Assembly (NCBI GenBank): GCA_031425655.1
Contig: JANPJS010000124.1
Coordinates: 1-39,470 of the forward strand
DNA: 39,470 nucleotides
Source of the DNA: Abditibacteriaceae bacterium
GTDB lineage: Bacteria > Armatimonadota > Abditibacteriia > Abditibacteriales > Abditibacteriaceae
Direction: 5' to 3'
The notes under the pieces were generated by a model, which worked only from the letters and a program-made list of their open reading frames with translations, was not told the origin of the DNA and searched no databases. The position numbers and the translations under genes were made by a program. This document shows, in pieces, positions 24,843 through 29,380 of this stretch (its first letter is position 1; every line of letters starts with the position of its first letter).

Positions 24843-26174
24843 ATGCCCTATTTGCATTCTGAGGATGATCCCACCCTGTCGGAAAAAGCCACGCCTGTAG
24901 CTAATAACCGCAGAGTATCTAAGGCGCTGCGCGGAGCGCCTCGGCAATGGCATTTGTCGGTCGTGCCCAACGATTTGGATCGGCTGCGCGACCATCCCGA
25001 TTTCGATGTTCACGGCGACCGCGCAGCCGATGATCTGAGCGGCACCGTTTTGCCCGCGCAGGCTCTCACTGAAAACGACCGCGAAGCACTTTATCGCTTA
25101 GAATTGCTCCGCATCTTTCGCCAGCGACTGCGCTTTGCCGCCGCTTTAGCGATGTTCATGATTCCATTTCTGGCTTATGTGAACGCCCGGCTTTTGCCGG
25201 CCACACAGCAAGAAGTAATTCTCACGTATTTTGTGCTATTCGGCGTTGCTCTGGTGACGCGTATGTTTTTCTGGCGATTGTCCACGCTCTGGCACGCGCG
25301 CTTCTTGTCACTTTTGGGCTACACGCTTTACGCAGTCGGATGCGGCGTCATCGTGGCGCTGATGGATCAAAACCATTTTGAAAACCAATTTCTCATTTAT
25401 TACTCCCATAACTATTTGATGATGTCGGCGCTGCTCTTGCCGTTCAGCGTGTGGGAAACCCTTGTCGTCGGGCTGATCGTGATGGTTTCGCTGGGCTGGT
25501 CGGCGTGGTGGGCGCCGCAGCGGGGGATTCAATACTTTTATGAGTCGCACTTGTTCATTCTTACGATGACGATGGGCTTTGTGCTGTGCGTGGCGAATTT
25601 CCAATCGCTGCTGCGCCGCCGCGCTTTCGACGCAGCCTTCGATTTGGCGCACAGCGCGGCCAAATTGGGCGAACTTTCCACCACCGACGTAGTGACGGGC
25701 GGCTTCAACCGCTTGCAAGTCGAAAAAAACCTCGCCGTAGAAATGGCGCGAGCCGCACGTTTCGAGCGGCCTCTTTCGCTTTTGATGTTCGACTTGGATA
25801 ATTTCAAAATCGTCAACGACACGCACGGTCACGCGGCGGGCGACGAAATTTTGCGCGAAGTCTGGCATTGCGCGATGGATACGGTGCGCGAAATTGACAC
25901 CGTGGCGCGTTACGGCGGCGACGAATTTCTGATCGTGCTGCCCGAAGCCGGCGCGCCCGACGCTCAGGCCATCGGCGAGCGATTGCAAAGCGAAGTCACC
26001 GCGCGTTTAGGTGCGCGTTTTGGCGCCAACAGTCCCGAAGCCGGCGTGACGCTGTCCATCGGCATCACATCGTTTCACGACCGCGAACCGTTGCCCATCG
26101 AGCAGCTTATCGCTCGCGCCGACGACCGCCTTTACGAAGCCAAACGCGCCGGCAAAAACCGCATCGCGCTTTAA
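24843..26174 (+). CDS. Membrane-bound diguanylate cyclase
   Basis: About 5-6 TM helices, DLDNFKIVNDTHGHAAGD, I-site REID and RYGGDEF. Start uncertain (24726-24843). Confidence 0.93.
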   Translation: MPYLHSEDDPTLSEKATPVANNRRVSKALRGAPRQWHLSVVPNDLDRLRDHPDFDVHGDRAADDLSGTVLPAQALTENDREALYRLELLRIFRQRLRFAAALAMFMIPFLAYVNARLLPATQQEVILTYFVLFGVALVTRMFFWRLSTLWHARFLSLLGYTLYAVGCGVIVALMDQNHFENQFLIYYSHNYLMMSALLLPFSVWETLVVGLIVMVSLGWSAWWAPQRGIQYFYESHLFILTMTMGFVLCVANFQSLLRRRAFDAAFDLAHSAAKLGELSTTDVVTGGFNRLQVEKNLAVEMARAARFERPLSLLMFDLDNFKIVNDTHGHAAGDEILREVWHCAMDTVREIDTVARYGGDEFLIVLPEAGAPDAQAIGERLQSEVTARLGARFGANSPEAGVTLSIGITSFHDREPLPIEQLIARADDRLYEAKRAGKNRIAL

Positions 26175-26656
26175 ATCTCCAATTCGCGCACCATATTGAA
26201 CGACCTGCCGCCGGTGCGATTGCGCTTTTCGCTGCTCGACACCGTGATAAAACCGGCCCGTTCGTAAAGTCGCACCGCCGGACTATCACCGCGCACATTG
26301 AGCGAAATCGCCGGATGCACGCCGCGCGCCGATTCGATGATCGCATTTATTAAAGCGGTGCCGATGCCCTGCCCTTGCCACGCCGGCAAAACCGCGATAG
26401 CCAATTCCGGCACTTCGTCGCGCACCCAGCCGAAGCCTTTGTCTGCGCCTGCCCACAAACGCAGCCACGCCGCGCCGACAGCTTGCCCGTTTTGCTCCGC
26501 CACGAAGCCCGCATCGCCGGCGCGGCCCCAATTCGCGGCGTAGCGCGCTAATTCCGGATTAGCGCGCACCGTTTCAAGCACTTTTTCGTGCGCGGCCAAC
26601 ATTAGAAATTGCCAGATCAAAGGCTCGTCGCCGGAAAGAAGAGGTCGTATTATCAT
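26171..26656 (-). CDS. GNAT-family N-acetyltransferase
   Basis: Acetyl-CoA motif ELAIAVLPAWQGQGIG and SLNV..DSPAVRLYERAGF. Confidence 0.92.
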   Translation of the reverse strand: MIIRPLLSGDEPLIWQFLMLAAHEKVLETVRANPELARYAANWGRAGDAGFVAEQNGQAVGAAWLRLWAGADKGFGWVRDEVPELAIAVLPAWQGQGIGTALINAIIESARGVHPAISLNVRGDSPAVRLYERAGFITVSSSEKRNRTGGRSFNMVRELEI

Positions 26657-26814
26657 CGCTCACTTTGGAATGGAACACGGCGGCTTCGCCGACACGGAAA
26701 CAGCCACGGATTTCCGCAGATCAATCCAGAAAACCGTGTAAATCCGTGGCTGTTTCTGTGAAATCCTTGCTGTGCTGCTTGCACGCAGCGTTACAGAAAG
26801 GGAAAATTTCAACC

Positions 26815-27219
26815 ATGATGGAAATAAATACAAGCCAAGAATCCAACGTCTCATATAAATTGGACTGGCAAGATTTAAATCAGAGGCATCGAGCTTACTC
26901 AATATGGCTGAAGACTAATATTCTATGTATCACTGTGATACTTTTCTTATGTCGGCTTGAATCTCCAAACTACCTACTCTATTCTTTTCTCGTCTGCGTG
27001 GTCTCAATTGGAGTTGGGCAACTCGTTTGGAGCCGATTGATGGCTTTTTGTTGTCCACGTTGCGGTAGGCTTCTTTTTCGGACTTCAATCATTTACAAAG
27101 CTCCTCAAGGTGGTCTGATAAAGATTCTAAAAACGGCATGGAGTAAACCGAATCATCCAGCGTTTAAGCGTTCATGGCGTAACTGTGATCACTGCCACCT
27201 TCCTATAAAATACAATTGA
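26815..27219 (+). CDS. Low-GC cargo protein: two TM helices plus CPRC...CDHC putative zinc ribbon
   Basis: ATG 26815 after GAAAGGGA; AT-rich; opposite strand to its neighbours. Confidence 0.7.
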   Translation: MMEINTSQESNVSYKLDWQDLNQRHRAYSIWLKTNILCITVILFLCRLESPNYLLYSFLVCVVSIGVGQLVWSRLMAFCCPRCGRLLFRTSIIYKAPQGGLIKILKTAWSKPNHPAFKRSWRNCDHCHLPIKYN

Positions 27220-27236
27220 TGATTGATAGTCCTCAA

Positions 27237-27284
27237 CAAGCAGCCCAACAAAGCGCTGCACCTCAACGCCTACCGCTCCGAACG
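27237..27284 (+). other. Truncated integron attC-like site
   Basis: GCCCAAC (RYYYAAC) follows the cargo stop, then AAAGCGCTGCACC. CAAGCAGCCCAAC is complementary (11/13) to GCTGTGCTGCTTG (26769-26781) at the cargo start. Confidence 0.55.
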
Positions 27285-27369
27285 ACACGGATTTCCGCAG
27301 ATCAATCCAAAAAACCGTGTAAATCCGTGGCTGTTTCCGTGAAATCCGTGTTCCATTACAAAGAATCTG

Positions 27370-27837
27370 TCAGGAAAGCCCCGCAAAAAAGCGCCGCGCT
27401 AAGACGACGGCGGCGAAATCGTCAACGGGTTCGGGCGGCATTTGTAGCGACAGCGGCAAGACGCGGCGCCAACCGCGCGGCGGATGCGCCTGCCAGTAAA
27501 GCGTGCGCGCTTCGAGCGTCGAGCCGCTTTCGTCCACCACGAAAATCTGCGCCTGCGGCAGCCACTGGGCGATGCGCTCCTGCCATTGGCGCGATGAAGT
27601 CGAATCGCCAAGCACGATAAGCGAAATCGCGTGTTCGCGCGCCCAAAGTGCCAGCACGCTTTGCACTTCGCTCACAGGCGCAACGCAGCGCCGCAAAGCC
27701 ACGCCATCGCGCCCGACAAGCGCCAGACCGCATTTTTCGCGGCCCGGATCGAAAGCGAGAACAACTTCGGGAGGCGGGAAGCAGGAGGCGGGAGGCAGGG
27801 CAGTTTCGGAGCGAGGAGCGCGGTTCGGCTTGCTCAT
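27370..27837 (-). CDS. YqgF/RuvX-like RNase H-fold nuclease
   Basis: VLAFDPGREKCGLA, IVLGD, VDESGSTLEAR and VDDFAAVVLA motifs. The N-terminus contains heptamer-derived LPPASCFPPP. Confidence 0.85.
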   Translation of the reverse strand: MSKPNRAPRSETALPPASCFPPPEVVLAFDPGREKCGLALVGRDGVALRRCVAPVSEVQSVLALWAREHAISLIVLGDSTSSRQWQERIAQWLPQAQIFVVDESGSTLEARTLYWQAHPPRGWRRVLPLSLQMPPEPVDDFAAVVLARRFFAGLS

Positions 27838-27841
27838 CGAG

Positions 27842-29305
27842 TCACAACTCCGGCGTGACGACCTCGAAGCGCACGCGCAGTTGATCAATGGCGCTGATGT
27901 CGGCATCGGCAACTAAGCGCACTTTGACGGACTTTTTAATTTCTTGAATGCGATGCAGCGCCTCGAAAAGGCGCTCGTTAGTGTCTTCAAAGAAAAACGG
28001 CTCGCTCTTTTCTGCACGCAAATAGGGGCTGACGCCGCGTGAGCGCGCCAGTCCTTCGGCATCGCTAAGGAGACGAAAGAGTTGCCCGAAAATGCGAACG
28101 TCGCTCTGACTGCCGTCTACAGTGCTTTCAGCCAAAGTTTCACCACGCGCCAGCACCAAACGTGCCGGCACCGGCACCAAGGCGGCCTGAATTTCGGGTT
28201 CGGACAGTGCGTGGTTGCGCGTCGAGATCACGCGCACCGAAACGTCCACCGTAAACGTCGTTAAATACTTGGCAAGATCGTCAATAATTTTATTGGTCGG
28301 TGGCATCGAGCCATCAGGTATCACCAAACGTAAGGTGCGTTTGGAATCAGCCTCAGAAATCACGCGCGACACGCCATCTACTAATTTGCGGAGTTGTATC
28401 GTTGTGTCAGCGATGCTGGTGCGCGGCGTGATAGTGCGTTCGTCGAAAATCCAGCCCGCTAAAACCGATGTATCAAAGGTTGCCAACTGGTTTCTTACCA
28501 ATTGCAATTGTTTGATTTCTTTTTGAACTCTTTTTTGCTCTTCCTCCAATCGCGCGACTTCCTCAAATTTCCCTTTGGCCTCTTTGAGAAACCTTTTGGT
28601 CTCCGTGAAGAAGCTTTTTTTGGCGCTAGTCTCATCAGCTTTCGCTTTGTCAGCCGCTGCCTGCGCTGTCTTTGCCGCTGCTTCTGCGCGGTCCAGTTGT
28701 AAGTTGAGTTTGGCGAGTCGGGTTTTCGCACCGGTGAGATTACGATTAACATTGTCCAACTGCTGTTGCTTGCTGCTCAGATTGCGCGCCGCATTTTTGG
28801 CGCGGAGATTGGCGTTGCTTTCGCCCAAACGCGCCAAACGCTCCTGAGCCTTCGCCGCTTTGAGATTGGCTTGCTCGGATTTCAGATTCGCCGCCGCGTA
28901 TTTTAAGTCCCGCTTGGCTTCGCTGGCCGCTTTTTGAGCGATGGCCTCTTGCTTTTGGGCCTGCGTTGTGGCTTGTCGAGCCTGCTCGTTTTGCAATTTT
29001 AGCGCGCTTTGCTCGTGGCGTAGCTGCTTGTTATCTGCGCGCAACAAAGTGTTGGCAGCGCGTTCTTCGTCGTAGTGCAGAAGGGCGCGGCGCAGGCCGC
29101 TGTTGACGAGCAGCAGCGTAGCGAGCGTGAAAAACATGATGCCCACGCTGGAAATCATGGTAATCAGCGTGGCGGTCTGGCGCGGTCGCAAGCCAAACAG
29201 CGTCACGCGCTTTTTGCCCAGCTTTTTACCCAAATTGTCGGCCCAGTAAGCGATTACGCAAGTGGCAATCGTCAAACCGAACAAGAGAAAAAGGGGAGTG
29301 GACAT
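27842..29305 (-). CDS. DUF3084-like membrane-anchored coiled-coil protein
   Basis: IAYWADNLGKKLGKKRVTLFGLRPRQTA motif, two TM helices and a long coiled coil; lies between lptB and the yqgF-like gene. Confidence 0.85.
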   Translation of the reverse strand: MSTPLFLLFGLTIATCVIAYWADNLGKKLGKKRVTLFGLRPRQTATLITMISSVGIMFFTLATLLLVNSGLRRALLHYDEERAANTLLRADNKQLRHEQSALKLQNEQARQATTQAQKQEAIAQKAASEAKRDLKYAAANLKSEQANLKAAKAQERLARLGESNANLRAKNAARNLSSKQQQLDNVNRNLTGAKTRLAKLNLQLDRAEAAAKTAQAAADKAKADETSAKKSFFTETKRFLKEAKGKFEEVARLEEEQKRVQKEIKQLQLVRNQLATFDTSVLAGWIFDERTITPRTSIADTTIQLRKLVDGVSRVISEADSKRTLRLVIPDGSMPPTNKIIDDLAKYLTTFTVDVSVRVISTRNHALSEPEIQAALVPVPARLVLARGETLAESTVDGSQSDVRIFGQLFRLLSDAEGLARSRGVSPYLRAEKSEPFFFEDTNERLFEALHRIQEIKKSVKVRLVADADISAIDQLRVRFEVVTPEL

Positions 29306-29308
29306 GGG

Positions 29309-29380
29309 AGTTTTGAGTTTTGAATTTTGAGTTTTGAGTTGAGCTGTTAACTCATAATTCAAAACTTAAAACTCAAAACT
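29309..29380. repeat. Palindromic heptamer-arm element (TTTTGAG family), second copy
   Basis: AGTTTTGAGTTTTGAATTTTGAGTTTTGAGTT, an 8-nt spacer, then AACTCATAATTCAAAACTTAAAACTCAAAACT. It fills almost the whole lptB-DUF3084 gap. Confidence 0.92.

What the first reader, a model, noticed from the sequence alone, without database searches (positions are those of the whole stretch)
26669..27357. Palindromic mini-element that appears to have captured an integron-like gene cassette
Seen: a 12-bp outer inverted repeat encloses two 62-bp direct repeats (60/62 identical), each partly palindromic with CACGGA cores. Between them lies a low-GC ORF on the strand opposite to its neighbours. The ORF is preceded by GCTGTGCTGCTTG and followed by the complementary CAAGCAGCCCAAC-AAAGCGCTGCACC. 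Established: integron cassettes begin at GTTRRRY and end at a complementary RYYYAAC that opens the attC. Inference: removing one direct repeat plus the cargo leaves a normal empty element. A cassette therefore seems to have been inserted into the element with duplication of its core, outside any integron and with no integrase or transposase in the window. This could be an undescribed route of gene capture.
Basis: partly seen in the sequence, partly recalled or inferred. Interest (0 to 1): 0.82.

Follow-up and report, generated by a model that had tools for sequence, protein, structure and literature searches.

The report
Integron cassette lodged in palindromic repeat
A stray, now immobile integron gene cassette sits inside one copy of an abundant hairpin-shaped DNA repeat; similar cassette-in-repeat junctions at two other sites suggest the integron enzyme uses this repeat as a landing site, while the flanking duplication looks like an ordinary recombination scar of this genome.

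Summary
The anatomy is real. The outer element is one of 192 loci of a dispersed palindrome whose arms elsewhere enclose a GxxExxY nuclease gene (the scan has reported that family in other genomes). The cargo is a real, decayed cassette of this genome's own integron (IntI on another contig): it starts at the element's G|TT and ends in a 34-bp attC stub. The duplication is not an element property: 29 gene ends here carry the same scar (median 75 bp; earlier scan notes on this genome said so, retested), and one cassette (C24) has stub plus duplication with no element. What may be new: cassette starts fall on the same element unit, AAAT(C)CGTG|TT, at a second site here (C94) and in a relative (G003), where a whole attC joins the element's end at G|TT. 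Best model (0.6): IntI inserted the cassette at an attG-type site in the palindrome; additive recombination of DNA from a related strain then cut the attC and left the duplicate. Nothing shows that loaded elements move as units. New variant of SALIN/attG insertion; three clear cases in two genomes.

The parts
26171..26656 (-). GNAT acetyltransferase gene, left neighbour
   Evidence: abuts the YqgF-like gene without element or cassette in G001 and G003
26663..26680 (.). Left outer inverted repeat (12-bp core 26669-26680 plus 6 bp of flank)
26669..26769 (+). Left, nearly complete copy of the dispersed palindrome (model positions 1-101 of 108); lacks only the last 7 bp
   Evidence: 70.3 bits; inner stem 26693-26713 / 26740-26760
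26705..26769 (+). Direct repeat, copy 1; carries all three differences from copy 2
26769..26792 (+). Cassette start: decayed R' core (G|CT where G|TT is expected) and conserved leader, in register with the G|TT of the element's outer unit
   Evidence: leader score 15.4; register
26815..27219 (+). Cargo ORF, 134 aa, two hydrophobic segments (about 27-48 and 53-78) and two CxxC motifs (80, 124): probably a small membrane protein with a zinc ribbon (inference)
   Evidence: no family or alignable homologue; unnamed look-alike clusters at 0.94-0.95 by language-model features
27235..27280 (+). Cassette tail and attC stub: R'' AAC at 27247-27249, 34 bp of the left arm, 3' half missing
   Evidence: fails as a whole attC (8.6 bits, E 1.1)
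27281..27357 (+). Right, 5'-truncated copy of the palindrome (model positions 27-108), joined directly to the attC stub
   Evidence: 65.3 bits
27286..27350 (+). Direct repeat, copy 2, ending at the G of the intact G|TT
27346..27363 (.). Right outer inverted repeat (12-bp core 27346-27357 plus flank)
27370..27912 (-). YqgF/RuvX-like gene, right neighbour (true start probably about 45 codons into this ORF)
   Evidence: Pfam hits below cut-off

Best explanation
Three layers. (1) A copy of a dispersed, gene-less palindrome of the GxxExxY-linked family entered the junction between the YqgF-like and GNAT genes (shown: family, loaded copies, empty site in relatives; how it moves is unknown). (2) The lineage's integron integrase inserted a cassette at the G|TT of the element's unit AAATCCGTG|TT, a non-attI (attG-type) site (shown: IntI, cassette signals, register, recurrence; inferred: that IntI made the joint). 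(3) That cassette-bearing allele was added to a chromosome holding the empty element by one homologous exchange plus one illegitimate joint (one-sided recombination, or single crossover of a recircularised fragment). The illegitimate joint fell inside the attC, removed its 3' half and left the resident element's core behind as the second repeat (inferred from the same scar at other loci). The result is a fixed cassette that can no longer be excised by attC recombination, only lost by recombination between the repeats.
For: Element: 192 merged loci, 136 internal and complete; the same arms enclose a GxxExxY gene at 2 loci here and 1 in G003; site empty in 2 of 3 same-genus genomes, rearranged in the third. 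Integron: IntI 428 bits against a cut-off of 265, 69 attC profile hits. Recurrence at the same unit: C94 (leader 21.5, attC cut 6 nt after AAC) and G003:C21 (SMI1/KNR4 cassette starting at AAAAATCCGTG|TT, whole attC joined at G|TT to the element's terminal TTCTATT). The unit has 78 sites in elements against about 40,700 G[AT]T sites outside long ORFs; two hits among 12-30 dispersed starts have P 0.0002-0.002 (motif chosen after seeing the cases, so optimistic; G003:C21 came from an unbiased adjacency scan). Scar: 88 two-copy repeat-bracketed inserts; at gene ends 29 to 1 keep the upstream copy in the intact gene, median 75 bp, 90% identity, insert 409-4852 bp; in 22 ungapped pairs 77 of 131 differences are at third codon positions, as for two alleles that diverged under selection. 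Of 90 such inserts 4 hold a cassette start and 3 of the 4 end in an attC stub abutting the second copy. Precedent: GWT attG insertion and SALINs (10.1101/2022.09.11.507474); 109-950-bp duplications from single crossover of recircularised DNA (PMC3240628).
Against: The left joint reads CCTTG|CT, two changes from CCGTG|TT, and resembles the ...CTT|GTT end of some attI-like sites, so it could be a microhomology joint. Counting whole elements and not the unit, enrichment is weak: P(2 or more) 0.08-0.34 under an intergenic null. Element GTT sites are not attI-like as a class (12 of 787 above the 99th percentile; this site 80-85th), while the C94 context does score at the 99th, so C94 might be an attI fragment fused to an element. 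Only 1 further case in 26 family genomes by six patterns and 1 in 138 relative attC loci; none in 94 metagenome or 5 genome-collection pattern hits. No close strain was found, so donor and recipient alleles are not observed. Classical HFIR usually deletes and does not duplicate (PMC3240628). Stub plus repeat in 2 of 14 truncated against 0 of 24 whole terminal attC is not significant alone (P 0.13).
Confidence: 0.6

Rival explanations
1. One local event: IntI exchanged one strand at the element's G|TT, and during replicative resolution the new strand stalled in the attC hairpin and switched to the empty sister copy of the element, giving stub and duplication at once, without foreign DNA.
For: The two copies are mutual nearest neighbours at 95%; left arm of copy 1 and right arm of copy 2 pair 21/21; 3 of 4 cassette-bearing scars end inside attC (P about 0.004-0.012 by length); single-strand exchange at attG sites is shown (10.1101/2022.09.11.507474).
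Against: At C24 and C94 the repeat starts 60-160 bp upstream of the cassette start and the copies differ like alleles of two lineages (82% and 77%; 5 synonymous to 2 non-synonymous codons at C94); 86 of 90 such scars have no cassette start; the clean case G003:C21 has no repeat.
Confidence: 0.2
2. One reading: the palindrome, mobilised by its GxxExxY nuclease, captures cassettes with duplication of its core and carries them as loaded units.
For: The arms naturally hold a gene in the loop; cassettes recur in the element; the element is absent at the orthologous site in relatives.
Against: Cargo enters at a G|TT in the right arm, not where the GxxExxY gene sits; no cargo occurs twice; duplication is absent in G003:C21 and extends into the host gene at C94; the same scar is common without elements.
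Confidence: 0.1

Closest known systems
SALINs and attG-site insertion (Loot et al., bioRxiv 10.1101/2022.09.11.507474; parts 1 and 3-6 of 6 read, supplements not seen)
   Same: Single cassette far from intI; start at a GWT triplet; IntI available in trans; loss of the attC could fix the cassette, as the paper suggests.
   Different: The attC is cut, so IntegronFinder-type models would miss it; the target is a repeated palindrome unit used more than once; a 65-bp duplication is not a product of attC x attG recombination.
Additive one-sided recombination: HFIR and single crossover of recircularised DNA (PMC3240628, passages); displacement arrays at T6SS/rhs loci (PMC5361080, passages)
   Same: One homologous end, one illegitimate joint, resident sequence pushed downstream as a short duplicate.
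   Different: Here the displaced piece is a repeat core, not a gene end; classical HFIR mostly deletes; donor not observed.
MITEs and the integron mobilization unit (IMU) (PMC3184786, passages)
   Same: Small gene-less inverted-repeat element in many copies, associated with integron DNA.
   Different: No target-site duplication (113 of 121 without a flanking repeat of 2 bp or more); IMU uses two whole elements around an integron piece and transposes, whereas here one element is split by the cassette.
REP/REPIN with RAYT (PMC3184786, passages) and the GxxExxY-armed palindromes noted earlier in this scan
   Same: Intergenic hairpins with a rarer gene-carrying form between inverted arms.
   Different: The carried gene is GxxExxY (TIGR04256/PF13366), not a Y1 transposase; no paper found describing it as an element.

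Membership tests
Integron cassette (this lineage's attC class) | Starts at G|TT core (R') | tested here: inconclusive
   Reads G|CT; leader otherwise conserved, score 15.4 where clear starts score 20-31; 5 of 7 core positions complement R'', as in 2 of 21 intact cassettes (16 of 21 have 6-7)
Integron cassette (this lineage's attC class) | Single promoterless ORF ending just before R'' AAC | tested here: met
   ORF stop 27219, AAC 27247; length and GC like array cassettes; promoter absence not tested
Integron cassette (this lineage's attC class) | Complete attC able to fold (R'', L'', L', R') | tested here: not met
   Left 34 bp only; covariance model 8.6 bits, E 1.1; stub does not pair with what follows. 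It is a cassette remnant, not a mobile cassette
SALIN (attG insertion) | Single cassette with no intI nearby; integrase in trans | tested here: met
   IntI only on C103
SALIN (attG insertion) | Insertion at GWT with target split cleanly and a whole attC | tested here: not met
   GWT register met in copy 2, but attC cut and target duplicated; met at G003:C21 for the attC side
SALIN (attG insertion) | IntI-catalysed joint | not testable with these tools
   needs a recombination assay
MITE / IMU | Terminal inverted repeats | tested here: met
MITE / IMU | Target-site duplication | tested here: not met
   113 of 121 complete copies lack one
MITE / IMU | Ends shared with a transposase-coding IS | tested here: inconclusive
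   The gene found between the arms is GxxExxY; 6 Y1 transposase loci exist but their flanks were not examined
GxxExxY-armed palindrome | Same arms enclose a GxxExxY gene elsewhere | tested here: met
   2 of 9 PF13366 loci in this genome and 1 in G003 have these arms; most of the other 7 have different palindromic arms
attC-like hairpin substrate (element as synthetic attC; criteria from PMC7439510, passages) | Paired AAC/GTT R box plus unpaired central spacer and two extrahelical bases | tested here: inconclusive
   Outer AAC pairs with GTT in the folded empty form, but the stem has a side hairpin, and I saw no canonical extrahelical bases (judged by eye)
Additive recombination scar | Short direct repeat of resident DNA bracketing a foreign insert, sharp joint at the start of the second copy | tested here: met
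   65 bp, 95%, 516-bp insert, inside the range of 29 gene-end scars
Additive recombination scar | The two copies come from different lineages | tested here: inconclusive
   Shown as codon bias for gene-end scars; not testable for a non-coding 65-mer without close strains

The most novel reading that the evidence does not exclude
The GxxExxY-linked palindromes are recurrent chromosomal landing pads for integron cassettes: IntI prefers the G|TT of their AAATCCGTG|TT unit, and because the element stands at about 190 gene junctions it spreads cassettes into operon borders and supplies portable homology that lets such alleles be added to related chromosomes, where loss of the attC fixes them. This would be the first natural, repeat-encoded attG hot spot that my searches could find.
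Probability: 0.4. Interest if true: 0.65.

Novelty: new variant of a known kind. Interest (0 to 1): 0.45.

Why it matters
attG insertion was mapped in E. coli with laboratory cassettes; which natural sites attract cassettes, and how solo cassettes become fixed, is open. A defined 11-bp unit in an abundant repeat gives a direct test of target preference, and attC stubs of 6-60 bp show that attC-model surveys undercount solo cassettes. If the preference fails, this is an ordinary decayed cassette inside an ordinary recombination scar.

Tried and rejected
Cargo homologues: none by word search (4 candidates), phmmer over 1.84 billion proteins (3 weak hits to long repeat proteins), Pfam, NCBIfam or in the genome; so 'homologues in cassette arrays' could not be tested. 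Rfam: only chance hairpin hits. Reads: no RNA holder listed; joints skipping the cargo in the source run carry other letters and match other element copies, so they are not an empty allele; runs X2-X4 do not cover the locus. Pattern searches for more hybrids: searches found none (hits were ordinary attC sites or chance) and were too strict, since they missed C94 and G003:C21; searches recovered only G003:C21; metagenome (94 loci) and genome-collection (5 loci) hits had no element or attC profile match. Model searches of five relatives showed no listed element within 1 kb of a listed attC, but 189 of 339 element rows were not listed. For G013 and G017 only 30 of 160 attC hits were fetched, for G003 30 of 34. 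C3 (element left part, G|TT, weak leader 10.3, low-GC membrane ORF, no attC seen) is kept as possible only and not counted. Rejected: element as general attI mimic; IntI cut at the stub joint (joints at C24, C94 and here are not in AA|C register); an attC 3.6 kb from the GNAT gene in G002 is unrelated. In one search the 14 'truncated' sites include at least one false anchor (C69) and decayed whole sites; many 'truncated' labels are variant whole sites. Literature searches for the element or for cassette-in-repeat targeting; none described it; the library lacks most subscription papers, and the supplements of the bioRxiv paper (imprecise excisions, attG motifs) were not seen and may bear on the motif.

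Full report
Observation. The window is contig C124 of a 5.98-Mb genome. A contig of the probable source run spans both joints unchanged. The two repeat copies are each other's nearest neighbours among 192 element loci; 4 of 40 sampled elements have a neighbour that close.

The element. A profile finds 192 loci, 136 of them internal and complete; it also occurs in all five relatives searched. It has terminal inverted repeats but no target duplication (113 of 121). At two loci here and one in G003 the same arms enclose a GxxExxY gene; most of the other seven PF13366 loci have other palindromic arms. I saw this before opening the scan's notes; they report the family from at least 20 genomes. Two searches found no paper on it as an element. 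In G001 and G003 the YqgF-like and GNAT genes abut with neither element nor cassette; in G002 they are apart.

The cargo. The genome has an integron integrase on C103 (TIGR02249, 428 bits) and 69 attC profile hits in arrays and solo sites. The cargo's tail and the next 34 bp match the left half of these attC (38/43, E 5.7e-9; alignment), but the site fails as a whole attC. The leader matches that of array cassettes, with G|CT for G|TT. The G is the last base of repeat copy 1; the same base in copy 2 is followed by TT. So the cassette begins where an integrase would cut the element's outer unit. The protein has no alignable homologue; two hydrophobic segments and two CxxC motifs suggest a membrane zinc-ribbon protein (inference).

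The duplication. Self-comparison gave 319 direct-repeat pairs; after dropping multi-copy, element and attC pairs 88 remain; 29 have the upstream copy as the end of an intact long gene, 1 the reverse, 2 both, 56 neither. Median repeat 75 bp, 90% identity, insert 930 bp; the window's 65 bp, 95% and 516 bp fit. In 22 ungapped pairs 77 of 131 differences are at third positions, which points to alleles of two lineages and not to copy-and-decay. At C24 a phosphomannomutase gene end, an attI-like site, a cassette, a 60-bp attC stub and the displaced gene end give the window's layout without any element. Of 90 inserts tested, 4 hold a cassette start and 3 end in an attC stub at the second copy. Passages of PMC3240628 show that single crossover of recircularised DNA gives such duplications while classical HFIR mostly deletes; PMC5361080 (passages) invokes one-sided recombination for displaced genes. 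I cannot separate these two routes.

Recurrence in the element. At C94 a carbonic-anhydrase-like gene end is followed by the left part of an element, a cassette starting at AAAATCGTG|TT, an attC cut 6 nt after AAC, then the displaced gene end and a complete element; three same-genus genomes have no element there. In G003:C21, found by scanning 138 attC loci of six relatives for adjacent elements, a SMI1/KNR4 cassette starts at AAAAATCCGTG|TT and its whole attC joins the element's terminal TTCTATT at G|TT, with no direct repeat; the piece between the element's two GTT sites is missing, as two integrase events would give (inference). C3 is a weaker candidate. Against: counted by whole elements, two hits among 12-30 dispersed starts have P 0.08-0.34 under an intergenic null; counted by the unit, P 0.0002-0.002, but the unit was chosen afterwards. 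Element GTT sites are not attI-like as a class, though the C94 context is. No further case came from pattern searches of 27 family genomes, metagenomes or the genome collection; these patterns are strict and lineage-specific.

Mechanism. Most likely (0.6): element first, IntI insertion at its G|TT second, additive recombination third, leaving a fixed cassette. Shown: family, loaded copies, empty site, integrase, cassette signals, scar class, recurrence. Inferred: the integrase step and the foreign donor at this locus. Rivals: a single local event with template switching during resolution (0.2); element-driven capture (0.1); microhomology joints only (0.1).

Comparison. It works like a SALIN made by attG insertion (10.1101/2022.09.11.507474; parts 1, 3-6 of 6 read) but fails membership on the whole attC. 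It is not a MITE or IMU (no target duplication; PMC3184786, passages). Whether the element is used as a double-stranded site or as a hairpin is open: its outer AAC pairs with GTT, but I saw no canonical extrahelical bases (criteria from PMC7439510, passages). The family name Abditibacteriaceae comes from the earlier notes, not from a call of mine.

Verdict. Real; mostly explained by known processes; one testable new element, a repeat unit that may be a natural attG hot spot (probability 0.4). New variant of a known kind; interest 0.45.

Noticed in passing
G000, 21 dispersed cassette arrays: About 16 of 21 arrays away from intI begin at an attI-like site (TGCGG..TAAT, five bases, G|TT), several with the inverted partner box; only C211 keeps a trace of the intI start region and only one intI exists. 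These CALINs are attI-headed, not random attG insertions; the motif also looks like an extended -10 promoter box (recalled).
   Followed up: partly
G000 genome-wide: At least 29 genes have a short displaced copy of their own 3' end beyond a 0.4-4.9-kb insert, with 29:1 polarity and third-position-biased differences.
   Followed up: partly
G000:C14:3965: A solo cassette starts about 12 bp after what looks like a tRNA 3' end (judged by eye).
   Followed up: no
L274:760-875 (G003:C21): The left end of the element is replaced by an inverted copy of about 20 bp of the cassette leader, suggesting a template switch; a ParE-like gene pair lies upstream.
   Followed up: partly
G000 elements and attC sites C12, C29, C211: A short module (CCCAGAGGG type) is nested in arms of many elements, in the variable part of some attC sites and in other GxxExxY arm families: a smaller repeat that enters hairpins.
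   Followed up: no
G000 PF13366 loci: Nine GxxExxY genes, most with their own distinct family of palindromic arms.
   Followed up: partly
L311 (G011:C1:2377262): Apparently truncated attC followed by a 65-bp repeat (82%) of DNA 650 bp upstream: a possible further stub-plus-duplication case.
   Followed up: no
G000:C143:4717-5198 and C172:519-719: Pairs of attC-like sequences on opposite strands close together.
   Followed up: no
window 27770-27797 and 29300-29362: Short heptamer-type tandem repeats at gene starts (GGAGGCG type; the TQNSKLK-coding type), in an lpt-like gene cluster.
   Followed up: no
G000:C235:5714-7832: Another gene-end scar whose insert holds a DNA-methyltransferase-like and a restriction-enzyme-like ORF (judged by eye).
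   Followed up: no
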